64,000 nucleotides of DNA, from the IMG/VR virus record IMGVR_UViG_3300038393_001696; one strand, written 5' to 3'. Source of the stretch: an uncultured virus (IMG/VR IMGVR_UViG_3300038393_001696). Taxonomy: Duplodnaviria; Heunggongvirae; Uroviricota; Caudoviricetes. The notes beneath the pieces are model-generated. The model made no database searches, was not told where the DNA came from, and saw only the letters and a program-made list of their open reading frames with translations. Below are positions 1 to 62,972 of this stretch, one piece after another. Position 1 is the first letter of the stretch. Each line of letters starts with the position of its first letter. The position numbers were made by a program, and so were the translations under genes.

Positions 1-245
1 GCGTAGTGGTTGCGGGCGAAGTCGGTCAGGTCAATCAGTCCATCATCGGTCCGGCGCAGCCAGCAGGTGTCGAAGGCGCGATTGAGCGCATCCAGGCGGC
101 GCGAAGGTACGAGGCCGAAGCTGCCGAGGCTGAACACCTCCTGCTCGGTCTTCGGGCCGGTTTCGTAGATCGCCTTGCCGGCGATGTAGCTGCCCTGCTG
201 CTTGTTGATTGGGATGCGCGGGCGGCATGCGGAAATGCGAGTCAT
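1..245 (-). CDS. Phage hypothetical protein (runs off the window edge), homolog of 53235-53618
   Basis: Manual translation from ATG 245: ...SYIAGKAIYETGPK...WLRRTDDGLIDLTDFARNHY, versus AYLAGALIYEEGSK...WLRRLPCGRIALTDAALAHY. Confidence 0.6.
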   Translation of the reverse strand, partial: MTRISACRPRIPINKQQGSYIAGKAIYETGPKTEQEVFSLGSFGLVPSRRLDALNRAFDTCWLRRTDDGLIDLTDFARNHY

Positions 246-928
246 GCTGCTTCCAGTATCAGTTGTTGCGGCCTTATCGACCGTTTGAGGTGAGGTGCAT
301 TGGCGTGAAATACAGCCAATGCGAATCCACGGGGCGTAGCACTTCGAATGTTGGCGCGCTCCGGACCGGGTGGGCACTTGTGGATGCGATCGTCCGGCGG
401 GCCAAGCGTCTCGTCGCGCTGCGGGGGCGGCATTACAAAATCGTTGCCCGTCCAGAGGCACGTGGTCTTGGTGTAGTTGTCGTCCGAGTAGAACCCGGTG
501 TAGTCGTCTGGGCTGAACGTGTGCGTAGCCTTGCCAAATATGCTGCTGAACACACTGACCGGGTTCTCGAAGAACCAAGGCGCTCCGGACAGCATGCCGA
601 CCATGCGGCATTGTTCGGCCACCAGCGCTGCTTTTGCCTGAAAGTGTTTGTCTTGCGCCGCCTTGGAGGCGAACCAGCGCGAACCTGAGACCGCTACGTC
701 GGTGCAAGGCGGGAATCCGGCCACGAATACCACGCGCTCGGCACGAATGATCTCGCCGAGTCGATTGGCAGCGCCAAGGATCGTATTCGAGATGCGCTCT
801 ACCCCCCCCTCGATCTTTGTCACCGGATGTTGCGGGTCAACCAATACAACCCGGTAACCAGCATCGAGCCACGGCTGCGGCATGCTCATGGTGAGATTGC
901 AAAGGAAAATTGCGACGCCACGGCTCAT
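242..928 (-). CDS. Phage DNA cytosine methyltransferase-like protein
   Basis: AGFPPCTD (motif IV PC) and FFENPVS (ENV-like motif VI); start placed at MSRGVAIF, ATG 928. Confidence 0.7.
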   Translation of the reverse strand: MSRGVAIFLCNLTMSMPQPWLDAGYRVVLVDPQHPVTKIEGGVERISNTILGAANRLGEIIRAERVVFVAGFPPCTDVAVSGSRWFASKAAQDKHFQAKAALVAEQCRMVGMLSGAPWFFENPVSVFSSIFGKATHTFSPDDYTGFYSDDNYTKTTCLWTGNDFVMPPPQRDETLGPPDDRIHKCPPGPERANIRSATPRGFALAVFHANAPHLKRSIRPQQLILEAA

Positions 929-1359
929 GCGCGAGCCTCCATCGACCGGCTCGCAAAGAACGCCGGCGGCAGTGCCCACGGATCTGGCGCCACCGGCTCG
1001 GAGCGGACACGGATCGCGTAATACGCGTCGTGGCGCAGCACGTGGAAGTGCCGACGTGGATCGCTCGGCAGCTTCTGGGGCTGTGGCTCCGGCGTCACCA
1101 CCTTTGCCAGGAACGACTCGATCACCCGCTCCTCGGCCGCGAGCGCGAACACGGGCGCACCAACAGCACCCGGCACGGCCGCCGGCAAACGGCGCGCGAG
1201 CGAGACTACGTTTGCCGCCTCGAGCACTTCGAAGTGGCGGCGCGCGGACCTGGAGCTCACGCCGAGCAGCCCGGCCGCAGCGCTGACCACCATCTCCCCA
1301 GTGCGCATTGCATCGATTAGGCGGCGCAGGTTGGCAATACGGCTTTCCGTGCGAGTCAT
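925..1359 (-). CDS. HTH-containing phage protein, homolog of 55602-56057
   Basis: RIANLRRL...AAAGLLGVSSRSARRH HTH-like segment; DPRRHFH...DPWALPPAFF tail shared with the prophage 2 gene. Confidence 0.6.
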   Translation of the reverse strand: MTRTESRIANLRRLIDAMRTGEMVVSAAAGLLGVSSRSARRHFEVLEAANVVSLARRLPAAVPGAVGAPVFALAAEERVIESFLAKVVTPEPQPQKLPSDPRRHFHVLRHDAYYAIRVRSEPVAPDPWALPPAFFASRSMEARA

Positions 1360-2440: not shown

Positions 2441-2830
2441 TTAAATTGCGAATCTGCGGACCGCGCGGGCGCGAAGCCTGGCCGACTTGCTGCTGGAGAG
2501 CTGGCCGCCGTAGCTGAAGTCCTGAACCCAGGCATAGCCGGCGAGGGCAGCGTGCTGCTCGCCTGACCAGTACCAGTCCGACTTGAACTCGCGCTGCAGG
2601 TTGGCGAACAGCAGCGCCTGTTCGCGGCGCGTCGGCAGCCCGCCGCCAGCCTTTGCAGCGAATTTCTTCGCCTCTTCCCACGTCACCGAGCCCGCCTCTC
2701 CCGGCAACAGAATCAGATGGTGGTCGGGCTGGCCCTCCACGCCGAGAAGCAGACCGGCATAGATTTCGCCCTGTTTCAGGTTTTCTTTCATCCACTCCGC
2801 CTTTGCGGTAGCTGCGCTGCTCATTGACAT
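2441..2830 (-). CDS. DGR target protein 2 (small C-type-lectin-fold, DUF1566-like)
   Basis: TWEEA...LPTRREQ...WYWS...RARAVRR C-lectin motifs; 3' end is a VR matching the TR. Confidence 0.9.
   Translation of the reverse strand: MSMSSAATAKAEWMKENLKQGEIYAGLLLGVEGQPDHHLILLPGEAGSVTWEEAKKFAAKAGGGLPTRREQALLFANLQREFKSDWYWSGEQHAALAGYAWVQDFSYGGQLSSSKSARLRARAVRRFAI
2454..2558 (-). repeat. DGR variable repeat VR2 (remote, opposite strand)
   Basis: 105-nt ungapped match to TR 9289-9393 with 16 mismatches, all at TR adenines. Confidence 0.95.
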
Positions 2831-2934: not shown

Positions 2935-3540
2935 TCAGCCGACCGAGCGCAGTTTTGCCACGGCCGACCTGCCGGCGCGAGCGATGATGCTGCGGATGTC
3001 GCGCGCCGCGCGGCGGCTTGCCTCTTCGGCCTCCTCGACCTCGCGAAGCGCGGTCTGGAGTACCTCAACTGGTGCGTCCGCGCGCACGTCGGCCAGCGCA
3101 ACGACTGCCTCGCTGCTCTCCTTGGCGACAGACTTCAGGTCATCCCTGGGATCGATCGCCGCGTCGTCGGGCAGCTCGTCAGCGATACGGGCCGCGACAC
3201 CGAGTGGACGGAGAATTTGGTTCAGCACGTGAAGGCGACGGTTCTCCGGCAGCGCTGCGAGCATCGTCGGCAGCATGTTGGAGCCGAGCAGGTTGTTATC
3301 CTTGTTGACGTCATCGAGCCAGCGGTTAATGCGCTCGCAGTGCGCCTTAGCCTGGGTGAAAGCATCTTTGCTGCCCGAGTCAAATTCGACTCCCGTCAAG
3401 CGATCAGCGCCAATCGAAACGTGCGCATCGACGATGTGCAGCGCCAGGGCTTCGCGGCTCCAACCCTGCTCACGCCGGAAGGCCTCGAACTCGTCGCGAA
3501 GGATTCCGATGACCGTCTTGCTGTGTGCTTCGTTCCACAT
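2935..3540 (-). CDS. CII-like regulatory protein, homolog of 57001-57597
   Basis: Directly downstream of cro; SREALA...RWLDD...KESSEAVVAL motifs shared with prophage 2. Confidence 0.6.
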   Translation of the reverse strand: MWNEAHSKTVIGILRDEFEAFRREQGWSREALALHIVDAHVSIGADRLTGVEFDSGSKDAFTQAKAHCERINRWLDDVNKDNNLLGSNMLPTMLAALPENRRLHVLNQILRPLGVAARIADELPDDAAIDPRDDLKSVAKESSEAVVALADVRADAPVEVLQTALREVEEAEEASRRAARDIRSIIARAGRSAVAKLRSVG

Positions 3541-3669
3541 GACTTTTTCCTTTTTGAAATCTAATCTGGCAACACTCATCAATTACTGCTGGAGATCTGC
3601 GTGCCGACTGCCCTCACCATCCCTGCTTGCTTGCGCCGCACGCTACTCCTGTTGACACAGCACAAAGCC

Positions 3670-3948
3670 CTATTGCGCGATGCTGGATACGCTTTGCGGT
3701 CTGCGCCGGCCTCGATTCGGCGACTCTTTGGTGGCCAGCTCTGGCCAAATCGTTTGCCAAACTTCGGGAAACATCTCGCGCCGGGTCACCATGCCGCCGG
3801 TCTTGAGCTCGATCGAGGCACCGAATCGAATAGGAATCGGTCGTTCTCCGGTTGACCACTTGTAGACGTCGGGCGGATGGGCGCCAATGGCCTTCGCAAG
3901 CTTTGTCAGCCGGCCGCGCTCTTCGGAGAGGTATTGGGAAAGGTTCAT
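3670..3948 (-). CDS. cro: Cro-like (YdaS family) regulator
   Basis: HTH LAKAIGAHPPDVYKW, IELKTGGMVTRREMFP..IWPEL; divergent from the repressor. Confidence 0.8.
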   Translation of the reverse strand: MNLSQYLSEERGRLTKLAKAIGAHPPDVYKWSTGERPIPIRFGASIELKTGGMVTRREMFPEVWQTIWPELATKESPNRGRRRPQSVSSIAQ

Positions 3949-3956
3949 GCGCTCAG

Positions 3957-4032
3957 TTTAGCCTAAGGCTAAAGTCTTGCGCAAGAAAAAGTTTAGCCTT
4001 CTGCTGATATCGCTTTTTAGCTAATTGCTAAA
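3957..4032. promoter_or_regulatory. Prophage 1 OR-like operators (three 17-bp imperfect palindromes)
   Basis: TTTAGCCTAAGGCTAAA 3957, TTTAGCCTTCTGCTGAT 3992, TTTAGCTAATTGCTAAA 4016. Confidence 0.8.
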
Positions 4033-4042
4033 TAATATTGGG

Positions 4043-4474
4043 ATGAAAACAATTGACCAGATACGACGCGACAACCTGCAGGCCCTCGTTGATGAGTACG
4101 GGTCGGCCGCCGCAGTTGTGAGTGCGATCGGGTGTAGCGCTTCGCAGTTCAGCCAGTGGCTAAATGCATCACAAAACAGCGGCACGGGGAAGCCGCGAGG
4201 AATCGCCACGGCATCATGCCGTCGGATCGAGAAGGCGACAAACAAGCCGGTCGGCTGGATGGATAAGGAGCATCCAGCAGGCCAAGCCGGGGCTCAGCTG
4301 GCGGTGATTACTCCGCCTGAGCGCGAAACCAGAATGATCCTGGCATACGATGACGAAATAGCCCTTCTTGACCTTTACCGCCGATCAGACGAACGCGGGA
4401 AGCGGGAAATATTCAACTCAGGCCGCATCGAGGCTGATCGGACTAGTGCTGAAGTTGCTTCGCACAAGCGATAG
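4043..4474 (+). CDS. Phage repressor (N-terminal HTH, no S24 autocleavage domain)
   Basis: IRRDNLQAL...IGCSASQFSQW...CRRIEKATNKPVGWMD; divergent from cro across the operators. Confidence 0.8.
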   Translation: MKTIDQIRRDNLQALVDEYGSAAAVVSAIGCSASQFSQWLNASQNSGTGKPRGIATASCRRIEKATNKPVGWMDKEHPAGQAGAQLAVITPPERETRMILAYDDEIALLDLYRRSDERGKREIFNSGRIEADRTSAEVASHKR

Positions 4475-7007: not shown

Positions 7008-7904
7008 ATGTTTTTCCAGAACCTCCAGCTTTATCGCGTGCCCGCGCCTTGGGCATTCACTCCCGAACAACTCGATGAATCGCTCAAGCAACAGCGCTTT
7101 GCTCCAGCCGGCAGTAACGAACTGCTGCGCATGGGCTGGGATTCGCCGCGGAAGAACGGCCAGCTCGTGCACGTCGTCAACAAGCAGATGCTGCTGGTGC
7201 TCGGCACCGAGAAGAAGCTGCTGCCGAGCTCGGTGATCAACCAGGTCGCGAAGGCGAAGGCGGCCGAACTGGAAGAGCAGCAGGGCTTCCCGCCGGGCAA
7301 GAAGGCGATGAAGGAACTGAAGGAGCGCGTGGCCGACGAGCTGCTGCCGCGCGCATTCTCGATCCGCGGCAACGTTTGGGTCTGGATCGATCCGGTCAAC
7401 GGCTGGCTGGTGGTCGATGCGGCCAGCCCGGCCAAGGCGGACGACGTGATCAAGCTGCTGCTCAAGGCGGTGGACCGCATGCCGCTGGAATCGCTGCGCG
7501 TGCAGCGATCGCCGGTGGCGGTGATGACCGGCTGGCTGGAATCGGACGAGGCGCCGTACGGCTTCACGATCGACCAGGACGCGAAGCTGCGCTCCGCCGG
7601 CGAAAGCAAGGCCGAGATTGGCTACAAGCGCCATACCCTCGAGGCGGATGACATGCGCCGCCACATCGCAGCCGGCAAACAGTGCACTCGTCTGGCGCTG
7701 ACCTGGAACAGCCGCATCTCTTTCGTGCTGACCGACAGCCTCGCGCTCAAGGTTGTCAAGCCGCTCGACGTCATCCGCGAGAGCGCGGCAACCCCGTACA
7801 GCGATGACGAACGCTTCGACAACGACTTCGTGCTGATGACCGGCGAATACGCCAGGATGCTCGCAGATCTGGTCGATGCGATGGGCGGGGAGGCGAAGGC
7901 GTGA
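7008..7904 (+). CDS. rdgC: Recombination-associated protein RdgC
   Basis: MFFQNLQLYR...EKKLLPSSVI...LLPRAFS...GKQCTRLALTW...FDNDFVLM. Confidence 0.92.
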   Translation: MFFQNLQLYRVPAPWAFTPEQLDESLKQQRFAPAGSNELLRMGWDSPRKNGQLVHVVNKQMLLVLGTEKKLLPSSVINQVAKAKAAELEEQQGFPPGKKAMKELKERVADELLPRAFSIRGNVWVWIDPVNGWLVVDAASPAKADDVIKLLLKAVDRMPLESLRVQRSPVAVMTGWLESDEAPYGFTIDQDAKLRSAGESKAEIGYKRHTLEADDMRRHIAAGKQCTRLALTWNSRISFVLTDSLALKVVKPLDVIRESAATPYSDDERFDNDFVLMTGEYARMLADLVDAMGGEAKA

Positions 7905-8125
7905 CGAAGCAGGAAACCGAGGCGGAGCGCCTGGAGCGGTTGGACCGTGAAGCCAGCCGCGTCTACCGGGCGCAGCGCTTCTCGGGCGGGAAGACATCCA
8001 AGCGGTACCGACTCGATATGGAAGAAGTATCCCGTCCGACCGCTGCAGCACCGCCAAAAGGCGCAACTGGTAACGACATCAAGCAGTAATTTTAAGCAGA
8101 TTAACACTCACAACAAGGAGAAAAC

Positions 8126-8740
8126 GTGAACACCCAGGTCCAGAACACCCTGCCGGAGATCGGCTCTTCACTGGAAGGCGGCTTTTACGCCGGCCGGATC
8201 CAGATCGATGGCATTCTCTATGCGCTGATCGTCGCGCCGAAGGTGGAAGGCGAACGGGATGGCGTCGCGTGGCTCGAATCCGAGCAGCGCGTCGCTGATG
8301 CCAACAGCTACAACAACGGCATGCTGAACACGCGCGCCATGCTCGAAGCCGGAAGCGAGGTGGCTCAATGGGCACACGGCCTGGCTATCGGCGGCTACAC
8401 CGACTGGTATATCCCGAGCCAGGACGAACTCGAGATCATCTATCGCAATCTGAAGCCAACCGCAGAGACTAACTCGCTGTACGGCCGAAGTGGCGTGAAT
8501 ATCTCGGCGCCCCCGCCTACCTTCGCCTACAACCGCGAACTGCCGGCCAAGACGACGGCTGAAGGTTTTGCTGCGGGCGGCGAGCATGCCTTTGCTGACG
8601 AATGGTACTGGTCGTCCACGCAGAACGCTGCCTACGACGACTTTGCCTGGGGTCAGCTCTTCGTCATCGGCAACCAGGGCTACATCCCCAAGTCGGCCAG
8701 GCGTCGCGCCCGCGCGGTCCGCAGATTAACCATTCAGTAA
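8126..8740 (+). CDS. DGR target protein 1 (DUF1566-like C-type-lectin fold)
   Basis: GGFYAGRI...GGYTDWYIPSQDELE...WYWSSTQ...RARAVRR; carries VR1; directly upstream of avd. Confidence 0.92.
   Translation: MNTQVQNTLPEIGSSLEGGFYAGRIQIDGILYALIVAPKVEGERDGVAWLESEQRVADANSYNNGMLNTRAMLEAGSEVAQWAHGLAIGGYTDWYIPSQDELEIIYRNLKPTAETNSLYGRSGVNISAPPPTFAYNRELPAKTTAEGFAAGGEHAFADEWYWSSTQNAAYDDFAWGQLFVIGNQGYIPKSARRRARAVRRLTIQ
8619..8724 (+). repeat. DGR variable repeat VR1
   Basis: 106-nt ungapped match to TR 9288-9393: 14 mismatches at TR adenines, 2 at non-A positions. Confidence 0.95.
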
Positions 8741-8757
8741 TTTAGTCCTTTCTCAGC

Positions 8758-9111
8758 ATGGCACTCCACACCAACCTGCCGATCTACAAGGTCGCCTACG
8801 ATCTCCTGGTGCTCGTCGCTAACCTGTCGAAGAACATGCCGCGCGACTTCAAGGCATCAATCGGCGGCAAGCTTCGCGACGAGACCGTCGAGATCGTGAC
8901 CTTGATCTTTCGCGCCAACGTGGCGCGTGAGAAGGCTCGCCATCTAGATGCGCTGATCGAGCGCGTGCAGGTGGCTGAACTGCTGCTGCGGGTGGCGCGC
9001 GACATGCGCCTCATCGCGGTGAAGCAGTATGCCAGCGCGATCGAGCTGACTACCAGCGTCAGCAAGCAGGCCAATGGATGGCGCCGTTCCGCAATGCCGC
9101 CCGCTTCATGA
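8758..9111 (+). CDS. avd: DGR accessory variability determinant (four-helix-bundle Avd)
   Basis: LPIYKVAYDL...MPRDFKASIGGKL...IFRAN...SKQANGW; lies between target and TR. Confidence 0.9.
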   Translation: MALHTNLPIYKVAYDLLVLVANLSKNMPRDFKASIGGKLRDETVEIVTLIFRANVAREKARHLDALIERVQVAELLLRVARDMRLIAVKQYASAIELTTSVSKQANGWRRSAMPPAS

Positions 9112-10508
9112 TGGTCAAGGCCACCATGACTGTGCGAACTTTTAATCTGGTCGTGCCGCTGGCTCACGAGGCCACCGCCATGCGCACCGCAGATACCACT
9201 CGACAGTGTTCGGGCAGGTCCGGCGCAGTTTCCCCGCTGATCGGCCGCTGCGGCCTTCGGTGGGGCGATGTAGATAGCACGAATAACCGCAGCACGCTGC
9301 CAACGACGACTATGCCTGGAATCAGAACTTCAACAACGGCAACCAGAACTACAACAACAAGTCGGCCAGGCTTCGCGCCCGCGCGGTCCGCAGGTTATCC
9401 CGGCCGCCACCATGCTGATTTTTCTTTCGAGGAGCTGGTCCTAGCCTATCTGGACTGCCGCCAGACGAAGCGCACATCTGCCAGCGCCATAGCGTTTGAA
9501 CAGGACCAGGAGCGCAATCTGGCGCGGCTGCACGACGAGCTGCTTGATGGCACCTACCATCCGGGCCGGTCGATCTGCTTCGTCATCACCCGCCCAAAAG
9601 CGCGCGAAGTCTGGGCGGCGGACTTCCGTGACCGTATCGTGCACCACCTGCTCTACAACCGCATCGCGCCGCGTTTTCACGCCTCGTTCATCGCTGATAC
9701 CTGCGCATGCATCCCGGGCCGCGGCACGTTGTATGCGGCACGGCGCCTCGAGTCGAAGATTCGCGCAGCCTCCGGAAACTGGAGCAAGCCTCTGTGGTAC
9801 CTGAAGTGCGATCTAGCCAACTTCTTCGTCACGATCGACAAGCGTGTTTTATGGAAGCTTATCGCGGTCCGTGTGACCGAGCCCTGGTGGCTGTGGCTCG
9901 CTGGAGTGGTCCTGTTCCACGACCCGCGGCAAGACTTTGAAATGCGCGGCGATCGACGCCTGCTCGAGCGTGTGCCGGCGCACAAGCGGCTGGCCAGCCA
10001 GCCGAGCCATCTTGGCCTTCCAATCGGGAACTTGTCGTCGCAGTTCTTCGCCAACATCTACCTCGACGTGCTCGACCAGTACGCGAAGCACAGGATCGGG
10101 GCGCGCCACTACGTGCGCTACGTCGACGACTTCGTGCTGCTGCACGGGTCGCCGCGGTGGCTGAACGAAGCGCTGGCCAAGATTAACAAATTCTTGCCGG
10201 CGAAGCTGGGCGCGCGCCTCAACCCCACCAAGACGGTCCTGCAGCCGGTCGACCGCGGCGTCGACTTCGTCGGACAGCTGATCAAGCCATGGCATATGAG
10301 AACCAGGCGCCGCACGGTGCGTCAGGCCATCACGCGCGTGCGCACGATGGATGCGGACAACGTGCACTCAGCGGCTAACAGCTACTTCGGGCTGCTGCGC
10401 CAGGCATCCCACAGCCACGTCGACCGGGCGGCGCTGGCAAGAGCGGTGCTCCGGCGCGCGCATGCCGTCGACGGCGGCCTGACCAAGACCTATCGGAGGT
10501 CCAAATGA
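9108..10508 (+). CDS. DGR reverse transcriptase (start uncertain; recognisable RT sequence begins about 9420)
   Basis: REVWAADFRDRIVHH, LKCDLANFF, GLPIGNLSSQFFAN (DGR-type SQ motif), YVRYVDDF, GVDFVG. Confidence 0.93.
   Translation: MMVKATMTVRTFNLVVPLAHEATAMRTADTTRQCSGRSGAVSPLIGRCGLRWGDVDSTNNRSTLPTTTMPGIRTSTTATRTTTTSRPGFAPARSAGYPGRHHADFSFEELVLAYLDCRQTKRTSASAIAFEQDQERNLARLHDELLDGTYHPGRSICFVITRPKAREVWAADFRDRIVHHLLYNRIAPRFHASFIADTCACIPGRGTLYAARRLESKIRAASGNWSKPLWYLKCDLANFFVTIDKRVLWKLIAVRVTEPWWLWLAGVVLFHDPRQDFEMRGDRRLLERVPAHKRLASQPSHLGLPIGNLSSQFFANIYLDVLDQYAKHRIGARHYVRYVDDFVLLHGSPRWLNEALAKINKFLPAKLGARLNPTKTVLQPVDRGVDFVGQLIKPWHMRTRRRTVRQAITRVRTMDADNVHSAANSYFGLLRQASHSHVDRAALARAVLRRAHAVDGGLTKTYRRSK
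9288..9393 (+). ncRNA. DGR template repeat (TR)
   Basis: Nine AAC/AAT triplets in the VR reading register; matches VR1 and VR2 essentially except at A. Confidence 0.95.
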
Positions 10509-14610: not shown

Positions 14611-14752
14611 TTGACCGCCGCGCATCCGCAAGCCAGCATCTGGCCGCCGGCGCGTACCTGCAGCTGCTGTTAAGGATGGGCGTGCGGGTGCGGCCTTGGA
14701 CAATCAGGCCGTCCAGCGAATTGGAGAGCAATGTAATCGCAGCAAGGAGCGA

Positions 14753-14992
14753 ATGACGATGGCGGGGACCGGTTACCTAAGCGCCGATGAACTGGCGGAG
14801 CTGATCGACTGCAGACCCAATCAGCGCAGTAAAATGATTTCATGGTTGACCACAAACCGCTGGCGGTTTGAGGTTGCATCGAGCGGACTGCCGCGGGTCG
14901 CCCGGGCGTACCATGACAGGAAGATGGGCATCACAGAGGAAAAATCGCAGGCCAAGTATGCCGAAACACCAAACCTCAGCGCCTTCACGTAA
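14753..14992 (+). CDS. Excisionase-like protein (DUF4224-like)
   Basis: YLSADELAEL...WL...G.PRVAR; directly upstream of the integrase. Confidence 0.75.
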   Translation: MTMAGTGYLSADELAELIDCRPNQRSKMISWLTTNRWRFEVASSGLPRVARAYHDRKMGITEEKSQAKYAETPNLSAFT

Positions 14993-16247
14993 GGAGCGCA
15001 CCGGGATCGATCGGCTTTACAAGCGAGTCGGCAAGCGCAAGGTCTCGTTCTATTATCAGCATCCGGACGGTACCAGCGAGACGCTTGCCACCGCAACCTT
15101 GGGGGATCGCCAGGCCACCATCGAGGCCGAGCGAACCGCCAAGCGCAAAGCGCTTGATATCCAGCAGGGCGTAATCGTCGCAGGGTCCGTCGCGGATCTT
15201 ATCGATCGGTTCAGGACGGACGAAGACCCTCATCACTACCGTGACCAGTCCAAGGACGGCATCGCCGTACGCCGCGGAGTTTACGAAAACCTCATCAGGT
15301 TTTTCGGACAGATGCACCCCACGGCGCTAAAGACGATTCATGGTTATCAATACGTTGAGGCTAGAGCCAAGGCCGGTGCCCCGGTCAAGGCGTGGAAGGA
15401 GCTCTACGCTTTCTCCACGATCTGTAAGAAAGCTATCCGCTGGGGCGTCATGGAGCACAACCCATTTACGGATATGGACACCGACCCCCACGATAAGGAC
15501 GTTCGGACGGTAGAGCGCTCGCAGGTCGTGAGGTTCTATCTCTGGAGCCGCCGCCAAGACAATCGGAATGCGCGCTTGATGGGATGCCTTGCGATGTTCA
15601 CCTACCTGACGGGCTTCCGTGCTGCAGAGGTTCGCCCGCTGCTAAAGACTGCCGTCACGAAACAAGGGGTTGCGGTCGAGGGGGCGAAGCGCAAAAAAGG
15701 AGAGGCGCCAGTCCTGAAACTCCGAGAGTGGACGCCGCGGCTACGTTTGGTGGTTGCACGTATCGAACAGGCTCAGGTACATATGGCGCAGATGCCAGCA
15801 GAAGTCGTGCAAACTCTGGCGCAAATTACGGTTAAGATCGCCTCTGGGATGTCAGCCAAGTCCGCTGTAAAAGAAGCCGGGATGAAGGAGTCCACCTATT
15901 ACTATTGGCTCAAGCGGGCCAAGAAAGATGAGCGCGTGAAGCCAACCGAGTCGACCTACCTATTCCCGGCAAAGGGCGGAAAATGCTACACGAAAAGCGG
16001 ACTGTTTTCGACCTGGCAGGATGTGATGCTTGACTACGTGCGCTCGCTCGACGCTGGCGTGACAGCGGATAAGTTGGTTGAGCACCGGGACTATTACTCT
16101 CCGCTTGACATTCGCCCCGCCGCGATCACTGCCAAACTCGAGAGCCGCGACGCCGACGCCTACGATTTCGCGGCCCACGCCAATCCCGCGACCACGCACA
16201 GGCACTACGACCGGCGCAAGGTCAAAAAGGCGAAGGCAACGGAATAA
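14958..16247 (+). CDS. int: Tyrosine integrase
   Basis: YLTGFRAAEV (R-I), DIRPAAIT (R-II), AAHANPATTHRHYDR (H, Y); adjacent to att. Confidence 0.88.
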   Translation: MPKHQTSAPSRKERTGIDRLYKRVGKRKVSFYYQHPDGTSETLATATLGDRQATIEAERTAKRKALDIQQGVIVAGSVADLIDRFRTDEDPHHYRDQSKDGIAVRRGVYENLIRFFGQMHPTALKTIHGYQYVEARAKAGAPVKAWKELYAFSTICKKAIRWGVMEHNPFTDMDTDPHDKDVRTVERSQVVRFYLWSRRQDNRNARLMGCLAMFTYLTGFRAAEVRPLLKTAVTKQGVAVEGAKRKKGEAPVLKLREWTPRLRLVVARIEQAQVHMAQMPAEVVQTLAQITVKIASGMSAKSAVKEAGMKESTYYYWLKRAKKDERVKPTESTYLFPAKGGKCYTKSGLFSTWQDVMLDYVRSLDAGVTADKLVEHRDYYSPLDIRPAAITAKLESRDADAYDFAAHANPATTHRHYDRRKVKKAKATE

Positions 16248-16555: not shown

Positions 16556-16861
16556 TTATCCGCTCCTGCTTCCTTCTAGCACCACCGCCCGCCATTCCTG
16601 CACATACCCAGCGTCGTCGGTGCCCTTCTCGTAGCCGCGGAACAGCATGCCATTGCCGTGCATCGTCACCAGTTTGGCATCGTACAGGCTCTGGATGATC
16701 GGCTTGCGCTGCTGCTCGTCCTCGATGGCCGCTAGACTCAGCTCCAGAATGCCGGCCACCGCGGCCAGGCGCATATCGCCGGTCGTGCCCGGGTCGTTTT
16801 GGATGTCATGGTCGCTGCGGCGCTTGCCGCGCTCGCGGAGGCGGGTGATGGTGGCGTACAT
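16556..16861 (-). CDS. Hypothetical protein
   Basis: MYATITRLRERG...LYDAKLVTM...FRGYE...YVQEW. Confidence 0.55.
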   Translation of the reverse strand: MYATITRLRERGKRRSDHDIQNDPGTTGDMRLAAVAGILELSLAAIEDEQQRKPIIQSLYDAKLVTMHGNGMLFRGYEKGTDDAGYVQEWRAVVLEGSRSG

Positions 16862-16890
16862 GGGCGCGAGTGTAGCACTGTTGACCCAGC

Positions 16891-17836
16891 TCACCCTGAA
16901 CCCACCACCCAATAGCGCTTGATCACGGGATGCCGAAGGGTTCCTCCGTGCGTCCATTCTGTGAACGCTACTCGTGCACGCAACAGCGGCCGGACCCAAT
17001 ACACGCCCCGCTCCCGCCCGGTCGCGCCGGGGACTGGCGGCGGCGTCGGGATATGGCTGAACGCCGCCAGCAATTCGCGCCGCTGGCCGTCGCTCAGGCC
17101 CGAGCCGACCGAGCCGACATAGCGCAGTCCATCGTCAGCGCCAGGCATGGCCAGCAGCAGCGAGCCAACGCCGGCGCGGGTGCGCGTGTAGCCGACGATG
17201 ACAAATTCATCTACCAGGCCGCATTTGAGCTTGATCCAGCTCCGGGTGCGCCTGGATGCATAGTGCGAGTCGCGGAGCTTTCCGACGATCCCTTCCAGCC
17301 CAAGGTCGCAAGCTGCGCGCAGCATGTCTGCCGGGTCACCAGCAAGGGGGGGCGCTGTAGCGAACCACGCGCTGGTTGACCTTTGGGAGCGCCAGCTCGA
17401 GCAGTCGGCGCCGATCCTCCAGCGCCACCGCACGCAGGTCATGCCCGAAGAGGTACGGACAATCGAACAGGTAGTAGGTGATCCGCTCGCTTTTACGCGC
17501 GTCGATCGACTGCTGCAGCTGGCCAAAATCCGGCAGCCCGCGATCGTCCAAAACGACAATCTCGCCGTCGTACCAGCCCGGCGGAAGACAAAGCCTCGCG
17601 ATTGCGCGGCGCAGGCATTCCAGCTCGCTGGTCCAGTTGTGACCTCTGCGGGTGAACAGCTTGATGCTGATTCCCTCTACGCGCGCGAGCAAGCGGTAGC
17701 CGTCGTACTTCGCCTCCCATATCCACTCTTCCGGTACCATGGGCGGCTCATGCACGAGCGTGACTAGTTGCGGCGCCAGCCGGGCTGGTAGCGGCGCGGC
17801 AACGGCGGACGGCGGCATCGGCGGGACTCGGGGCAT
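16891..17836 (-). pseudogene. ligD: LigD-type ATP-dependent DNA ligase domain, frameshifted
   Basis: EAKYDGYR, DGEIV and YLFD in one frame; EGIVGK and WIKLK in another; the break is at a C7 run (17346-17352). Confidence 0.8.
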
Positions 17837-17897
17837 GGTCGCTCCTGATCAACCCCAAGCGTACTCCTATCGGCAATCGAAACCGCCGTTTATCGCC

Positions 17898-18212
17898 TCA
17901 GTCGGCCTTCCCGCACTGCTTTCGCTCGACCTTGTCCTTCGCCTTGGCGTCGGCGCGGGTCTGCCATTGCAGGTTGGGCAGGTCGTCGAGCGCCAAGCGC
18001 TCGGCCTCGGTCTTTGCGCAGGCCAAGGCAATCTTGTGGTCGACCACATAACCGGCACAAATCCCAGAGGTGCGGCCGGTGGCCGGGCATGGGACGGTGG
18101 CACGGAAAAGCCGGATGATTTTAGGGTTGCGCTTGAGCCTCCCGAAGTCATCTCTGGCCGGCGCCTGCGCGTGGGCGAGGACCGGCAACAGGAGCAAGAC
18201 AAGTAGCTTCAT
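17898..18212 (-). CDS. HNH-like protein with a signal peptide
   Basis: Signal peptide ending AHA; PCPATG...YVVDHKIAL...NLQWQT. Confidence 0.65.
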   Translation of the reverse strand: MKLLVLLLLPVLAHAQAPARDDFGRLKRNPKIIRLFRATVPCPATGRTSGICAGYVVDHKIALACAKTEAERLALDDLPNLQWQTRADAKAKDKVERKQCGKAD

Positions 18213-18353
18213 GCGCGCATTCTAGAAGCCCGTCCCGGCGCCCCTTTTGCGAACACGCAGTTCGCTTGACCTGCCGCCGAGCTCGCCTTGACGGTTAACA
18301 AGTTGGCGTAAACACAAGCATGCGAGGATGCCTCATCACATTACGGAGGCAAC

Positions 18354-18845
18354 ATGGCAGCAGATTTCTACCTGCAGATCGAAGGCATCAAGGGCGAGTC
18401 GTCGGACTCGAAGCACGCCGGCTGGATCGAATGCATGTCGGTCAACTGGGATATCCGGCAACCAAAATCGGCCACGGCTTCGACCGGCGGTGGTCACACC
18501 GCTGAGCGCGCCGAGCTCAGCGACATCAGCATAGCCAAGCTGGTTGACCTGTCCTCGCCCATCCTGGCGCAGCATTGCGCGATGGGGAAGACGATCCCGA
18601 AGGCGAAGCTGGAAATGCAACGCGCTGACGGGCAGGGGCAGCCGATAAAGTATTTCGAGGTCGAGCTCGAGAACGTACTAATCTCGCACATCGCGCCGAG
18701 CTTCGACGGCGGTGGGCAGCCAATGGAGAATTTGGGCTTGAAGTTCTCGAAGGTACGCTGGCGCTACACGCAGCAAAAGGTGGGCGGCGGCGCCAGCGGC
18801 AACACGGCCGGTGGCTGGGATCTGGCCACGAACAGGTTTGCATGA
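18354..18845 (+). CDS. hcp: T6SS Hcp tube protein
   Basis: DFYLQIEGIKGESSDSKH.GWIE...KLVDLSSP...GWDLATN. Confidence 0.95.
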   Translation: MAADFYLQIEGIKGESSDSKHAGWIECMSVNWDIRQPKSATASTGGGHTAERAELSDISIAKLVDLSSPILAQHCAMGKTIPKAKLEMQRADGQGQPIKYFEVELENVLISHIAPSFDGGGQPMENLGLKFSKVRWRYTQQKVGGGASGNTAGGWDLATNRFA

Positions 18846-19195
18846 TGCGCGCGCTCATTCTTTTGGCGCTCGCGCTGCCGGCTTACGCCGCGCCGGTCGG
18901 GACCCATCCATTCCCGTGGATGACCGGCGAGCAGCTACTGCGCAAGCTGGACCGACCGGCGAGCCAGATCGACGCTGCGGCGACATCAGCCTACCTGCAG
19001 GGCGTGATGGACGCCACCGCTGACCGTGAATGGTGCTACAGCGCGACCAAACCCGGTACCAACCAGGTGCAGCCGGTGCTGACGGACAAGCTGCGCGCGC
19101 TGCCACCGGCGCAGGTGCGCCAGAGCGCGGCGGTGCTGGCGGTGCAGGCGTGGCGAGAGAAGTGGCCTTGCACTGCGGGGTGCTGCCATGCATAG
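18842..19195 (+). CDS. Rap1a/Tai-like T6SS immunity protein
   Basis: Signal peptide, TGEQL, YLQGVMD, WC, C-terminal WPC; next to tae4. Confidence 0.8.
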   Translation: MMRALILLALALPAYAAPVGTHPFPWMTGEQLLRKLDRPASQIDAAATSAYLQGVMDATADREWCYSATKPGTNQVQPVLTDKLRALPPAQVRQSAAVLAVQAWREKWPCTAGCCHA

Positions 19196-19664
19196 ACCAC
19201 TCTATGCTGTCCTGCGAAGCAAGTATCCCGACAGGCGCTCCGTCAGCGCCGAGGAAATCTACCGGTGGATCGGCTACCCGCCCGAGTACGCGAGCGACGC
19301 GCGCTGGGCGAATACCTGCGCGGTCCGGATGAGCCTCGCACTAGTGCGCTGCGGGGTGCCGGTGCCGGGACGGCTGCGCGTGCTGGCCGGCGAGTGCAAG
19401 GGCAAGCTGCTCGAGCCGGGGCAGGCGAACCTTTCGCACATGCTGGTGCGCCTGTGGGGCGCGCCGGAAAAGTACCAAGGTGGCCCGGCGGCGATTAAGG
19501 GCATCGGCAGCCGGCGCGGCGTGATCAGCTTCTACCGCCTCTGGAACCCGAGGGACCCGCAAGGGCATATCGACATGGTGGCACCGTGGGGTATCAACGA
19601 CCTGGCATGTGAGGAGGACTGCTACTGGCTGTCGTCGGAGGTGTGGTTCTGGCCGCTGAAGTAG
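19188..19664 (+). CDS. tae4: Tae4-family peptidoglycan amidase effector
   Basis: NTCAVRMS (catalytic Cys), RGVISF, GHID (His), VWFWPLK. Confidence 0.88.
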   Translation: MHRPLYAVLRSKYPDRRSVSAEEIYRWIGYPPEYASDARWANTCAVRMSLALVRCGVPVPGRLRVLAGECKGKLLEPGQANLSHMLVRLWGAPEKYQGGPAAIKGIGSRRGVISFYRLWNPRDPQGHIDMVAPWGINDLACEEDCYWLSSEVWFWPLK

Positions 19665-46221: not shown

Positions 46222-47307
46222 CTAATCATTTGCCCCGCCTGCAATGGCGGGCGCGCTTCGATTTGGCTCGCCACTTTTGCGCCAGTTAAACCCGATTTCA
46301 CCGCCGATCCGGTTCTGCGCGCGCGCCGCCGTGTCGAGATTCTTCTCCAGGTAGCCCATCGTCGTGGTGAAGCTTTTATGCCGCATCACCTTCTGGATGG
46401 TCTGGATCGGCACGCCCGCCTCCGACAGCAGCGTGGCGAACGTGCCCCGCAAACGGTGCGGCGTGATGCCCTTGACCGCGCAGGCGGCATTAGCCCGGCG
46501 CAGCGCATGGCGCGCGAACCCGGGCGCGAACGGCTGCCCGTCCGGCCGGCATGCGATCAGGCCCTCGGCCTGGCGCAGCGGCTTCAGGAAGTCGCGCAGC
46601 CAGTCCGGCAGCGGCACCGGCTCGGCCTCCCTGCCCTTGGTGATGCCGGGCGTGTAGGTGCCGCGCTGCCAGTCGACCCATTCCCAGCGCGCCGACGCCG
46701 ACTCGCCTTCGCGCAGGCCCAGGCCGAACATCAGCCGCACCGCGACGGCGACGCCGGGCGAACGCACGCACGCCGCGTCGACCGCATCGAACCACGCCCT
46801 GGCGACATCCAGCGGCAAGACCGCGCGCGGCCGCTTCTGCACCTTGATCATCGCGACCTTCCACGGCGCCGCCAGGATGATCCCGCGCTTGACTGCCCAC
46901 AAGGTCAGCAGCTTCAGGATGCGCAGCCAGTGGTTCGCACTGGCCGGCTTGCGCTCCAGCAGGTGCGCGTTGCGCGCCAACTCGACGGCGCCGGTGGTGA
47001 TCTCGGTGATGCGCTTGTCGCCCAGACCGTAAAGGTGCAGGCGCCCGAAGCGCTCGACGCTGGCGGCATGGTGCACGCTGACGACCGGCCGGTTGGCCGC
47101 CAGCCACGCGTCGATCAACTCGCGCAAGGTCGGCACCGGCTTGCCCCCGTTGACGCGCACCACTTCGTCCTCGTAGGCCTTGTTGGCAATTTCCTCCGCG
47201 CGCCACCGCCGTGTCTCGCGCGTGCTGCACTGCGTGCGCTTGCGGGCAATCTGAAACCGGTAGTGCCACACCGATCCGACCCTGAACAGACTGGCGCCCA
47301 TCGTCAC
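46222..47307 (-). CDS. Tyrosine recombinase internal to prophage 2
   Basis: GLREGE, TKG, HRLR, MRH...TTMGY. Confidence 0.88.
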   Translation of the reverse strand: MTMGASLFRVGSVWHYRFQIARKRTQCSTRETRRWRAEEIANKAYEDEVVRVNGGKPVPTLRELIDAWLAANRPVVSVHHAASVERFGRLHLYGLGDKRITEITTGAVELARNAHLLERKPASANHWLRILKLLTLWAVKRGIILAAPWKVAMIKVQKRPRAVLPLDVARAWFDAVDAACVRSPGVAVAVRLMFGLGLREGESASARWEWVDWQRGTYTPGITKGREAEPVPLPDWLRDFLKPLRQAEGLIACRPDGQPFAPGFARHALRRANAACAVKGITPHRLRGTFATLLSEAGVPIQTIQKVMRHKSFTTTMGYLEKNLDTAARAQNRIGGEIGFNWRKSGEPNRSAPAIAGGAND

Positions 47308-49578: not shown

Positions 49579-50008
49579 GGATCGCCCTCCGCTGAGGCGG
49601 CGGCGCAAACAGCGCCGCCGCCCACCCGTTCGGTGCCGCTGCCGCCTTGCGCTGCCAGTACAGGCCGCTGCGTTGCGCCTTGCGCCGATCATCCACCTCA
49701 GTGCCCTTGACGCGCTTCTCGTAGCGGGCCCAGATCTGCTGGCGCGTCAGGCGCTTCAGGTTCTCCGGCGCGTCCGCGCCGGGCCCCGGCACGTACACCG
49801 GCATTGGCACGCCGCCGCCGTCGCGGTGCCGCCAGCGGCCGACGTGCACCTTGCCTTCGCGGTGCAGCTGCGCCACCGCCCGCGCCACCGTATAGGTTGG
49901 CAGGCCGGTGGCCGCGGCAATGGCCGGCCGCGTGCCCGGCAGCGCCGCCAGCACCGCTGCCCGCGCCGGCGCCCGGCGCGGATCGACATAGCCATCCGGG
50001 CGCTTCAT
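49571..50008 (-). CDS. HTH protein
   Basis: IAAATGLPTYTVARAV. Confidence 0.5.
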   Translation of the reverse strand: MKRPDGYVDPRRAPARAAVLAALPGTRPAIAAATGLPTYTVARAVAQLHREGKVHVGRWRHRDGGGVPMPVYVPGPGADAPENLKRLTRQQIWARYEKRVKGTEVDDRRKAQRSGLYWQRKAAAAPNGWAAALFAPPPQRRAIHA

Positions 50009-53163: not shown

Positions 53164-53234
53164 TTTCGATCCCCATTGTTGTTGGTCAGAGGCCGCCGCC
53201 AGTTGCCGCTGGCGGCGGCTTCGTCTTGTAAAGG

Positions 53235-53618: not shown

Positions 53619-53721
53619 GCGGTGGTCCTCATCTTGAAGCGGGCGTAGCGGCATCCGGCCAGGTGCGGCCGGCCAAGCGGCTGGTGGCAGCCGGTGCAGC
53701 GGCAGGGTGTGCGGGTGATGC

Positions 53722-61946: not shown

Positions 61947-62161
61947 GCGCGCTCGGCGGGCGCGCCGCAGCGAACACCGGATTCCATTGCCCTGAATGCT
62001 ACGCCAAGGGCGACCAACCGCACGCGTCGACCTGCTCGGCAGCCAAGGCGCCGGCGCCGGCGGTTATCCCGCTCGGCATCTCCAATTACCAGCTCCCCGA
62101 CGGTACGACGGGAAGCTCCTACACCAGCAGCACCAACCAACCACAACCAGGGAGAACCTCG

Positions 62162-62938: not shown

Positions 62939-62972
62939 TCCCTGGTCCCGGGTCGCCGCGTCAGCGGTGACC
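62801..62972 (+). repeat. Putative VR-A, conserved 3' tail and hairpin
   Basis: Ungapped match to 63762-63933; hairpin GGTCGCCGC-GTCA-GCGGTGACC. Confidence 0.85.

What the first reader, a model, noticed from the sequence alone, without database searches (positions are those of the whole stretch)
8126..10508. Complete DGR in the early operon, diversifying small proteins that do not look like tail fibres
Seen: target-VR1-avd-TR-RT sits just after rdgC among early genes near xis/int. The targets are only 204 and 129 aa, with no visible signal peptide or fibre shaft. Established: the best-studied phage DGR (Bordetella BPP-1) diversifies the tail-fibre tropism protein Mtd. Inference: these are cytoplasmic early hypervariable binders, for example for counter-defence, host-factor capture or phage-phage conflict. 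The function is unknown.
Basis: partly seen in the sequence, partly recalled or inferred. Interest (0 to 1): 0.8.

Follow-up and report, generated by a model that had tools for sequence, protein, structure and literature searches.

The report
Early-operon phage DGR, free lectin targets
A dormant soil-bacterium virus carries an intact targeted-mutation system (a DGR) that rewrites the binding tips of two small free-standing lectin-fold proteins encoded among its early genes rather than in its tail, a layout that is common in related viruses and partly published, while what the proteins bind remains unknown.

Summary
Window 8126-10508 is a complete DGR: target T1 (204 aa, DUF1566/Lcl_C) with VR1, Avd, an RT-15 RNA, TR and the RT. 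A second target, T2 (129 aa, 2441-2830, minus strand), lies 6 kb away. VR1 and VR2 differ from TR almost only at TR adenines (14 of 18 and 17 of 21 mismatches).

Both targets sit in early operons of a lambda-like prophage. T1 lies between rdgC and xis/int. T2 lies just after the cII-like gene.

The layout is not a one-off:
- 16 of 16 related genome loci have regulators, recombination or replication genes and an integrase around the cassette. One tail-type hit lies beyond an integrase.
- 64 of 80 viral contigs repeat T1-(T2)-Avd-RT.
- Five isolated phages share the layout (Magia, vB_E192a, QDWS, Cruim01, LPPA56).

Short DUF1566-only targets are in print (Wu 2018), as are Magia's short target frames.

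The cytoplasmic-binder reading is plausible but unproven. T1-like modules also cap tail fibres, and small free copies sit in tail modules (PMBT3, L027). Those form a separate clade from all early-operon copies.

Odds: free early-expressed binder about 0.45; detachable virion adhesin about 0.3. VR1 and VR2 showed no differences wherever the samples covered them.

The parts
8126..8740 (+). Target 1 (T1), 204 aa, free-standing DUF1566/Lcl_C C-type-lectin-fold protein. GTG start, with AAGGAG seven bases upstream.
   Evidence: Pfam Lcl_C 4.9e-11, above cut-off. phrog_4245 E 2.8e-31. 1169 near-length relatives of about 203 aa. AF2 model pLDDT 74. VIA-align: 4eps Z 8.3, Lcl_C 8q4e Z 7.7. Upstream bases.
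8619..8731 (+). VR1, the variable repeat at the 3' end of T1.
   Evidence: 84% identical to TR. 14 of 18 mismatches are at TR adenines.
8758..9111 (+). avd, the accessory variability determinant (four-helix bundle).
   Evidence: PF22296 bAvd 42.9 bits against cut-off 40. phrog_3206 'Avd protein of DGR' E 1.1e-30.
9095..9289 (+). RT-15 structured RNA, directly 5' of TR and overlapping the avd stop.
   Evidence: Rfam RF03018, 172.6 bits (gathering score 82), E 3.5e-43, full length 1-192. The same feature is annotated in phage Cruim01.
9288..9400 (+). TR, the template repeat. It holds 9 AAY codons in the target reading frame.
9420..10508 (+). DGR reverse transcriptase. The conserved part is given; the open frame runs from 9078 and the true start is undetermined.
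   Evidence: RVT_1 E 3.4e-15; phrog_1423 E 2.8e-117. 66-82% identical to RTs that follow Avd in related loci.
2441..2830 (-). Target 2 (T2), 129 aa, a minimal C-type-lectin-fold protein with a 17-residue N-terminal helix. It lies between the cII-like gene and an HTH gene.
   Evidence: Lcl_C E 2.3e-5, below the Pfam cut-off. AF2 pLDDT 94.1. Foldseek 8q4e E 1.3e-5, TM 0.62, plus many C-type lectin domains. No gene at the matching site of the second prophage, where a 62-nt gap lies between 56938 and 57001.
2447..2559 (-). VR2, the remote variable repeat at the 3' end of T2.
   Evidence: 78 of 82 non-A positions of TR are kept. 17 of 21 mismatches are at TR adenines.
7008..7904 (+). rdgC, the recombination-associated early gene just upstream. 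A 62-aa ORF (7901-8089) overlaps its end by 4 nt.
   Evidence: PF04381 E 8.9e-111; phrog_724. Coordinates.
2935..4474 (.). Immunity region: cII-like 2935-3582 (-), cro-like 3670-3948 (-), repressor 4025-4474 (+). It defines a PR-like arm that holds T2 and a PL-like arm that holds T1.
   Evidence: phrog_163, phrog_35, phrog_12107.
14696..16247 (+). Excisionase (14696-14992) and a divergent integrase-like gene (14868-16247) at the end of the same-strand gene string.
   Evidence: phrog_4764 and PF13986. tblastn to the Magia integrase, E 7e-11. No terminator-like site on the + strand between 6056 and 15518 (a crude scan).

Best explanation
This is an intact diversity-generating retroelement of the DUF1566 (CLec2) class. 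It belongs to a large lineage of temperate-phage DGRs whose cassette sits in the repressor-side early operon, between recombination or replication genes and xis/int.

Mechanism, inferred from the BPP-1 paradigm: the RT, with Avd, copies the TR RNA, whose 5' flank is the RT-15 structured RNA. It misincorporates opposite adenines. The cDNA then replaces VR1 in T1 and, 6 kb away, VR2 in T2. This rewrites 9 AAY codons on one face of a C-type-lectin fold.

Function of the targets (my commitment, inferred): T1 and T2 are free, soluble, signal-less binding modules made together with the early genes. They act as diffusible binders inside the infected or induced cell. They may capture or block a variable host or rival-phage factor such as a defence component. 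They are not built-in subunits of the tail fibre. Because the variant gene is expressed in the very cell it enters, genotype and phenotype stay linked, so selection can act on each variant.

Shown: the anatomy, the adenine bias, the fold, the operon position and the conservation of the layout. Inferred: current activity, timing of expression, location in the cell, and the ligand.
For: The DGR parts and the adenine bias:
- All parts are present.
- 14 of 18 and 17 of 21 mismatches are at TR adenines, P 1.3e-5 and 5e-7.

Operon packing:
- rdgC and the 62-aa ORF overlap by 4 nt. A 36-nt gap with AAGGAG precedes T1, and a 17-nt gap precedes avd. The RT stop overlaps the next ORF.
- T2 lies between the cII-like gene and an HTH gene on the PR-like arm.

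The layout is conserved:
- In 16 of 16 genome loci (181 ORFs within +-6 kb), the PHROG-named neighbours are CI/cII regulators, rdgC, RecE, ParB-like, helicase/primase, methyltransferases and dNMP phosphatase.
- An integrase lies downstream in 12 of the 16.
- The only tail-category hit lies beyond an integrase, in L020.
- Of the best 80 of 502 viral contigs, 64 have Avd/RT after T1.
- Only 5 of the 80 show any homologue of the second prophage's 13 structural or lysis proteins within 10 kb. These are one TerL 9.8 kb upstream and four lysozymes on the opposite strand. None is a tape measure, portal, capsid or tail protein.

The same layout occurs in phages with different tails:
- Magia, called a myophage in PMC7883833 (passages seen).
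- Cruim01.
- Medea1, which carries a T1 homologue (H17) and is described as lambdoid (PMC10175458); its gene layout was not examined.
- QDWS, vB_E192a and LPPA56.

Phylogeny: all 3 tail-module free copies and 19 of 20 fibre-fused domains form one clade (SH-aLRT 100). None of the 31 early-operon rows falls in it.

Other points:
- Early-type fusions exist: a 3'-5' exoribonuclease fused to T1 (P0136) and DUF551 fused to T1 (P0016).
- A DGR-less T1 homologue sits between CI and a Lar-like anti-restriction gene (L017).
- No lipobox or Tat motif.
- Cassettes carry up to three or four T2 paralogues.
Against: - No expression, localisation, virion or binding datum exists for any member. No RNA run holds the locus.
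- The one phage DGR target whose function the papers I read describe as tested, BPP-1 Mtd, is a receptor-binding protein (PMC5758913 and PMC8144416, passages seen).
- The T1 module is homologous over its full length (33-50% identity) to the tips of proteins with Phage_tail_fib, Mtd_N, collagen, fn3 and Ig domains.
- Small free T1-like proteins lie right behind fibre-like genes in PMBT3 (gp024, gp033) and L027. A shaft-less adhesin that docks on a fibre is therefore a real precedent.
- The tail genes of this prophage lie outside the window. A third VR in a fibre gene cannot be excluded.
- Activity is not shown. Three IMG/VR contigs from three samples are identical to the window from base 1 (L034, L036) or base 1000 (L035) up to 16441, VR1, VR2 and TR included.
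- The Logan contigs listed over VR1 in runs X3, X9 and X11 carry no differences there.
- Over VR2, only X9 spans it without a difference. X3 starts inside it at 2490 at a misassembly joint. The X11 contig over 2528-3114 has 8 unlisted differences and two odd joints.
Confidence: 0.45

Rival explanations
1. Detachable virion adhesin. T1, and perhaps T2, is made early or throughout the cycle. It then docks non-covalently on a tail fibre or tail tip as the receptor-binding tip, in the manner of a separately encoded adhesin. The DGR would then switch host tropism as in BPP-1. The early-operon position would only reflect where the mobile cassette lands.
For: - The full-length T1 module caps proteins with tail-collar-fibre, Mtd_N, collagen and Ig domains.
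- Free 170-217-aa T1-like proteins directly follow fibre-like genes in PMBT3 and L027.
- The fold resembles adhesive tips: Bacteroides fimbrial protein 4eps Z 8.3, Lcl_C Z 7.7, Bdellovibrio Bd2740 Z 5.1.
- Longer T2 forms carry a roughly 35-residue N-terminal helical extension that could serve for docking.
- Virion proteins need no signal peptide.
Against: - The gene lies in an early operon convergent with the late genes in 16 of 16 genome loci and in five isolated phages. It is never beside tail genes.
- The tail-linked forms are a separate clade.
- The same cassette type occurs in a myophage (Magia) and in siphophage-like lambdoids. A fixed docking partner is hard to square with that.
- There are several paralogous targets per cassette.
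- T1 has only about 15 residues before the domain.
Confidence: 0.3
2. A binder that acts outside the producing cell or in the lysogen. The proteins could be released at lysis as free lectins that coat receptors on neighbouring cells or debris. Alternatively they could be expressed from the prophage to protect the lysogen, as superinfection exclusion or an adaptive recogniser of incoming phage proteins.
For: - The cassette sits in the accessory-gene zone next to int, where conversion and exclusion genes cluster.
- Neighbours in relatives include a BstA abortive-infection gene (L003), an 'immunity to superinfection' gene (L014) and a Lar-like gene (L017).
- A cytosolic DGR-based recogniser has been proposed on general grounds (PMC10053308, passages seen).
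Against: - Both genes lie inside operons that a CI-type repressor should silence in the lysogen.
- No separate promoter stands out. The scan found 4 promoter-like sites against 4.6 expected by chance, none next to T1 or T2.
- There is no export signal and no effector domain to turn binding into defence.
Confidence: 0.15
3. A quiescent relic. The parts look intact, but the element no longer diversifies, and T1/T2 now work as fixed proteins.
For: - VR1, VR2 and TR are identical in three IMG/VR contigs from three sample ids.
- VR1 is identical in the contigs of three further runs, and VR2 in one (X9).
- 8 of 80 viral loci and 3 of 29 genome loci keep T1 without Avd/RT although the contig has room.
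Against: - All parts are intact. The RT frame is open, with YVDD and the IGxxxSQ-type motif visible (motif names recalled).
- VR1 and VR2 differ from each other at 26 positions, 21 of them TR adenines. Each was therefore rewritten separately.
- Assembled contigs hide rare variants, and the samples may be one campaign.
Confidence: 0.1

Closest known systems
DGR of Burkholderia cenocepacia phage Magia (NC_070954; gp44 RT, gp45 Avd, gp46/gp47/gp57 lectin-fold targets; PMC7883833)
   Same: Small lectin-fold targets, then Avd, TR and RT, lie between recombination genes and xis/int. One target is remote, near the immunity region. By tblastn, the RT is 66% identical, Avd 61%, and a T2-like protein 57%. 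[quoted passage not shown]
   Different: Magia has only T2-type targets and no 204-aa T1. It is described as a myophage. Its paper offers host range as a possible role and tests nothing.
Bordetella phage BPP-1 DGR (mtd-avd-TR-brt)
   Same: The same parts list and the same adenine-specific TR-to-VR transfer into the C-terminal C-type-lectin fold. Mtd 1yu0 aligns to the T1 model at Z 3.4.
   Different: Mtd is described as sitting at the tips of the tail fibres and switching tropism (PMC5758913, passage seen); that it is a 381-aa trimer with N-terminal fibre-attachment domains is recalled, not seen in a call. Here the targets are single domains of 204 and 129 aa in early operons. An RT-15 RNA lies 5' of TR.
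Short DUF1566-only targets, 'category d' / CLec2 VR class of Wu et al. 2018 (PMC5758913); type example Legionella LdtA
   Same: The VR overlaps DUF1566. [quoted passage not shown]
   Different: LdtA is a surface lipoprotein. T1 and T2 have no lipobox or Tat motif. That survey does not discuss an early-operon position; the word 'early' occurs 0 times in it.
Free-standing T1-like proteins in tail modules: Pseudomonas phage PMBT3 gp024 and gp033; locus L027
   Same: The same phrog_4245 module and a similar size of 170-217 aa, with 39-45% identity to T1.
   Different: They are encoded directly after minor-tail or fibre-like genes. No RT, Avd or TR is nearby. They fall in the fibre-tip clade, apart from every early-operon copy.
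DGR-diversified putative antigen sensors of multicellular bacteria (PMC10907252; search listing and abstract seen only)
   Same: A precedent for DGR targets in conflict systems rather than in host attachment; that they work inside the cell is my reading of the abstract, not its wording.
   Different: Those are cellular DGRs. That their lectin domain is fused to signalling or NTPase domains is recalled, not seen in a call. Here the element is phage-borne and the targets have no effector domain.

Membership tests
Diversity-generating retroelement (DGR) | A TR/VR repeat pair whose differences fall at adenines of TR | tested here: met
   VR1: 14 of 18 mismatches at TR-A. VR2: 17 of 21. Binomial P 1.3e-5 and 5e-7. 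78 of 82 non-A positions are kept in each.
Diversity-generating retroelement (DGR) | A reverse transcriptase of the DGR type next to TR | tested here: met
   RVT_1 E 3.4e-15; phrog_1423 E 2.8e-117. 66-82% identity to RTs that follow Avd in 20-odd loci. YVDD and an IGNLSSQ stretch are visible; that these are the DGR hallmarks is recalled.
Diversity-generating retroelement (DGR) | An accessory protein (Avd) | tested here: met
   PF22296 bAvd 42.9 bits, cut-off 40. phrog_3206 E 1.1e-30.
Diversity-generating retroelement (DGR) | The VR at the C-terminal end of a C-type-lectin-fold target, with a 3' end (IMH) that differs from TR | tested here: met
   Both VRs end 9 or 6 nt (3 or 2 codons) before the stop codon. 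VR reads ...GTCCGCAGATT and TR reads ...GTCCGCAGGTT. Fold evidence. No GC-rich hairpin is obvious after either VR (by eye).
Diversity-generating retroelement (DGR) | Ongoing mutagenic retrohoming (VR heterogeneity in a population) | tested here: inconclusive
   There are no differences at VR1 or VR2 in three IMG/VR contigs. The listed contigs over VR1 in X3, X9 and X11, and over VR2 in X9, also show none. Contigs drop rare variants, and no raw reads were laid.
Lcl_C / DUF1566 (PF07603) | Score at or above Pfam's gathering cut-off (34.9 bits) | tested here: met
   T1 scores 43.4 bits and is a member. T2 scores 25.1 bits, below the cut-off. T2 is linked by fold (8q4e E 1.3e-5) and by profile match of the last 66 columns to T1 (hhalign 99.7%).
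Mtd-type tail-fibre receptor-binding protein | An N-terminal fibre or shaft attachment region (Mtd_N, tail-collar, collagen, Ig) ahead of the lectin domain | tested here: not met
   Pfam finds only Lcl_C in T1 and T2. The single domain spans residues 4-201 of T1. T2 is a 17-residue helix plus one C-type lectin domain.
Mtd-type tail-fibre receptor-binding protein | Encoded in the tail or late module | tested here: not met
   T1 lies between rdgC and xis/int, and T2 after the cII-like gene. The same holds in 16 of 16 genome loci and five isolated phages.
Mtd-type tail-fibre receptor-binding protein | Present in the virion and needed for adsorption | not testable with these tools
   No virion proteome was found in the PMBT3 or Medea1 papers. 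The other isolates have no paper in the library.

The most novel reading that the evidence does not exclude
Temperate phages of this lineage use a DGR to keep a small arsenal of hypervariable soluble lectin-fold binders. These are made with the early genes and act inside the cell. They would be a phage-side counterpart of an antibody repertoire, aimed at variable host defence proteins or at rival phages. Tropism switching would then not be the only use of targeted hypermutation in phages. This window adds two points. One TR serves a target on each early arm (PL-like and PR-like). Two neighbouring related prophages each carry a diversified-target set in the same slot right after rdgC, with different lectin classes (DUF1566 here, FGE-type at 61943-63899).
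Probability: 0.4. Interest if true: 0.85.

Novelty: new member of a known kind. Interest (0 to 1): 0.55.

Why it matters
In the papers I read, phage DGRs are treated as devices for changing host range. Here the diversified proteins are free single domains wired into early operons. This holds across hundreds of phage contigs and at least five cultured phages, and nobody has tested what they do.

If they act inside the cell, DGRs would be a second, protein-level route of rapid adaptation in the phage-host arms race. The small scaffolds (129 aa, model pLDDT 94) would also be natural minimal hypervariable binders.

If they turn out to be detachable adhesins, that would show that receptor-binding tips can be encoded and regulated apart from the tail.

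Either answer is within reach, because cultured phages carry the cassette.

Tried and rejected
- Whole genome of the window: none is held. The tail genes of this prophage could not be read.
- T1+T2 complex prediction: verdict 'no answer', score 0.00. This is not evidence either way.
- RNA evidence: no RNA holder is listed among the 11 runs.
- Read laying: contigs only. There were no VR differences in the listed pieces. The 2490/9358 'opposite strands' joint in X3 is an assembly artefact of the VR2/TR repeat. Extra depth over rdgC and TR comes from relatives.
- Search for a third VR: an exact 24-nt scan with the 3' end of the VR found only VR1 and VR2 in the three IMG/VR copies. In metagenome contigs it found one unrelated 1550-nt contig with a T2-like gene.
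- Foldseek of the T1 model against PDB: nothing at E <= 0.001; best hit Lcl_C at E 0.12. The VR stretch, residues 166-190, has pLDDT under 50.
- Promoter and terminator scan: counts equal chance, 4 against 4.6 and 16 against 15.2. A terminator-like site at 2945-2932 (-), between the cII-like gene and T2, is therefore not claimed.
- Virion proteomics: none in the PMBT3 or Medea1 papers. The PseuP_222/224 paper does not mention DGRs.
- Literature on early-operon phage DGR targets: searches found no paper that treats this placement, apart from the Magia announcement. Supplements were not opened and may hold relevant target lists (Wu 2018, Roux 2021).
- tRNA at the prophage end: none in the window.
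- Hydropathy as a stand-in for a signal-peptide predictor flagged T1 residues 27-36. I rejected this because the stretch is a confident core strand and is internal in fibre-fused homologues.
Full report
**What is there**

The span 8126-10508 holds a complete DGR. The 204-aa ORF at 8126-8740 (T1) is a DUF1566/Lcl_C protein. Pfam scores 43.4 bits against a cut-off of 34.9, and phrog_4245 matches only the last 170 or so positions of a 583-position profile. Its last 113 nt (VR1, 8619-8731) repeat at 9288-9400 (TR) with 84% identity.

Between them lie avd (8758-9111; bAvd above cut-off; phrog_3206) and a full-length match to the Rfam RT-15 RNA (9095-9289, 172.6 bits against a gathering score of 82). 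The RT follows in ORF 9078-10508 (RVT_1; phrog_1423, E 2.8e-117). Its start codon is not settled.

A scan for TR-like stretches that tolerates changes at A found one more copy. This is VR2 at 2447-2559 on the minus strand, at the end of a 129-aa ORF (T2, 2441-2830).

**Is it more than chance?**

VR1 differs from TR at 18 positions, 14 of them TR adenines. VR2 differs at 21, 17 of them adenines. A makes up 31 of 113 TR bases, giving binomial P 1.3e-5 and 5e-7. The few non-A differences sit at the repeat edges, including the 3' end, where both VRs read CAGATT and TR reads CAGGTT.

In the target frame TR carries 9 AAY codons. Eight are changed in VR1 and nine in VR2. The two VRs differ from each other at 26 positions, 21 of them TR adenines. 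Each has therefore been rewritten on its own.

**The targets**

- T2 folds with high confidence (pLDDT 94.1) into a 17-residue helix plus one compact C-type lectin domain. The best Foldseek hits are the Legionella Lcl C-terminal domain (E 1.3e-5, TM 0.62) and many C-type lectin domains.
- T1 folds less well (pLDDT 74; the VR stretch 166-190 is under 50).
- Foldseek gave T1 only Lcl_C at E 0.12.
- The wide VIA-align search put a Bacteroides fimbrial protein (4eps, Z 8.3) and Lcl_C (Z 7.7) on top. Next came Bdellovibrio Bd2740 (Z 5.1), C-type lectin domains, and the DGR proteins TaqVP, TvpA and Mtd at Z 3.4-3.7.
- Z near 8 is the tool's usual best score, so I take this as agreement with the Pfam call, not as independent proof.
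- Neither family has a lipobox or twin-arginine motif (0 of 25 and 0 of 14 rows). A hydrophobic stretch in T1 (residues 27-36) is a confident core strand. I had no signal-peptide predictor.

**Where it sits**

The window holds three blocks:
- The right arm of one prophage (1-16.2 kb).
- A short host stretch with a ligase fragment and an Hcp-Rap1a-Tae4 set (16.5-19.7 kb).
- Most of a second, related prophage (20-64 kb).

In the first prophage, a cro-like and a cII-like gene run leftward. A repressor runs rightward, as do the genes after it: rdgC, a 62-aa ORF, T1, avd, TR, RT, eight more ORFs, xis and an integrase-like gene. These genes abut or overlap, and the crude scan predicts no terminator-like site on that strand between 6056 and 15518. 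This matches lambda's PL arm.

T2 lies on the other arm, right after the cII-like gene. The second prophage has only a 62-nt gap at that place. Co-transcription with early genes is inferred from this packing. No RNA data exist.

**Is the layout general?**

T1 has 1169 near-length relatives, nearly all about 203 aa and 55-70% identical.

Genome loci:
- In 29 genome loci, the usual cassette is T1, one or more T2-like genes, Avd, TR and RT.
- I annotated 181 ORFs within 6 kb of the cassette in 16 of these loci, choosing those with long flanks.
- The neighbours with a named PHROG are CI/cII regulators, rdgC, RecE, ParB-like proteins, helicase/primase, methyltransferases, PAPS reductase and dNMP phosphatase.
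- An integrase lies downstream in 12 of 16.
- The single tail-category hit lies beyond an integrase, in L020.

Viral contigs:
- IMG/VR holds 502 contigs with a relative.
- Among the best 80, 64 have Avd/RT after T1, 8 end too soon, and 8 have room but none.
- 58 of the 64 have a T2-like gene between T1 and Avd.
- The window's arrangement, with T1 next to avd and T2 remote, is thus a minority form. Three of the six such loci are this same element.
- Homologues of the second prophage's 13 structural or lysis proteins appear within 10 kb in 5 of 80 loci. These are one TerL 9.8 kb upstream and four lysozymes on the opposite strand. No tape measure, portal, capsid or tail protein appears. That query set is narrow, so it is a weak negative.

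Cultured phages show the same layout: Magia, vB_E192a, vB_Sb_QDWS, Cruim01 and LPPA56.

**What is already known**

- Wu et al. 2018 place DUF1566-type VRs in their 'category d' (CLec2). They state that about half of those targets are short, DUF1566-only proteins (PMC5758913, passages seen).
- Roux et al. 2021 class viral targets as 'structural' or 'unknown', and treat phage DGRs as host-attachment devices (PMC8144416, section 9 read).
- A 2023 paper floats cytosolic DGR-based recognisers in general terms (PMC10053308, passages seen).
- Searches found no paper that analyses the early-operon placement. I did not open supplements.
- Earlier notes of this scan report the same pattern in many genomes (33 notes). 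One of them was later marked 'part of it fell'. These are leads, not support. I re-derived the layout here.

**Evidence on function, both ways**

For a virion role:
- A search among longer proteins found 288 hits. The whole T1 module (about 94% coverage, 33-50% identity) sits at the end of proteins with Phage_tail_fib, Mtd_N, collagen, fn3 and Ig-like domains.
- In the virulent phage PMBT3, which has no RT nearby, a 170-aa and a 217-aa T1-like protein follow a minor tail protein and two fibre-like proteins.
- In L027, a 209-aa copy follows a 2490-aa protein and a fibre-like ORF.
- Small size and lack of a shaft therefore do not exclude a virion job.

For a separate role:
- In a 62-row tree (quick IQ-TREE run; the careful search did not finish), all 3 tail-module copies and 19 of 20 fibre-fused domains form one clade with SH-aLRT 100. 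All 31 early-operon rows fall outside it, as do the exoribonuclease fusion and one unplaced row.
- The cassette occurs in phages with different tail types.
- Fusions of the early type exist: 3'-5' exoribonuclease plus T1, and DUF551 plus T1.
- A DGR-less T1 sits between CI and a Lar-like anti-restriction gene.
- Cassettes often hold several paralogous targets.

**Activity**

Three IMG/VR contigs from three sample ids match the window without a single difference from base 1 (or 1000) up to 16441. One of them differs only beyond 17990.

The Logan contigs listed over VR1 in three further runs show no differences there. Over VR2, only the X9 contig spans it without a difference. The X3 contig starts inside it at a misassembly joint. 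The X11 contig that reaches it has 8 differences whose positions were not listed.

Contigs hide rare variants, and the samples may be one campaign. Current activity is therefore open.

**Verdict**

The element is a genuine, intact-looking DGR and a new member of a known, partly published lineage.

I think its targets most likely work as free early-expressed binders rather than as fibre subunits (about 0.45). A detachable adhesin comes second (about 0.3). An extracellular or lysogen-protective binder comes third (about 0.15).

The tail genes of this prophage were out of reach, so a third, fibre-borne VR cannot be ruled out.

Noticed in passing
window 61053-63899 (+): The second prophage also has rdgC (61053-61946) followed at once by two paralogous FGE-sulfatase-type lectin proteins of 331 and 349 aa. 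Both end in GFRCTKPIGL and share the same 3' flank. They differ mostly at first and second codon positions in one C-terminal patch, as two VRs of one TR would. TR, Avd and RT would lie past base 64000. So the slot after rdgC hosts diversified targets of two different classes in two neighbouring prophages.
   Followed up: partly
window 16556-19664: Between the prophages lie an ATP-dependent DNA ligase fragment (17336-17836, -) and a T6SS set: Hcp (18354-18845), Rap1a immunity (18842-19195) and a Tae4 amidase effector (19188-19664).
   Followed up: no
window 46222-47307 (-): A second integrase-family gene (PF00589, phrog_1) sits in the middle of the second prophage, between replication genes and the HNH/terminase block. 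It is not at a prophage end.
   Followed up: no
window 2490 / 9358: In run X3, one Logan contig joins VR2 to TR on opposite strands. This is an assembly artefact of the repeat. DGR repeats can misjoin contigs in metagenome assemblies.
   Followed up: partly
L017 9749-11270: A T1 homologue without any Avd or RT (a 278-aa ORF) lies between a CI-like repressor and an integrase. A Lar-like restriction-alleviation gene follows it directly.
   Followed up: partly
P0136 (416 aa) and P0016 (277 aa): Natural fusions of the T1 module to early-gene domains: an Rv2179c-like 3'-5' exoribonuclease (P0136, named from Azorhizophilus paspali) and DUF551 (P0016). P0136 groups with the early-operon copies of phage LPPA56 in the tree.
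   Followed up: partly
L003, L004, L010, L014-L016, L018, L021 (T2-like genes): About half of the T2-like proteins carry an extra N-terminal stretch of roughly 35 residues (for example TLADIEAAH..MIAAFEAQ). The window's T2 lacks it. It looks helical by eye and could serve for oligomerising or docking.
   Followed up: no
window 50005-55827 (-): The second prophage encodes a 1083-aa helicase-methylase fusion and a 701-aa C5 cytosine methyltransferase. The first prophage has a methyltransferase at 242-1000 (-).
   Followed up: no
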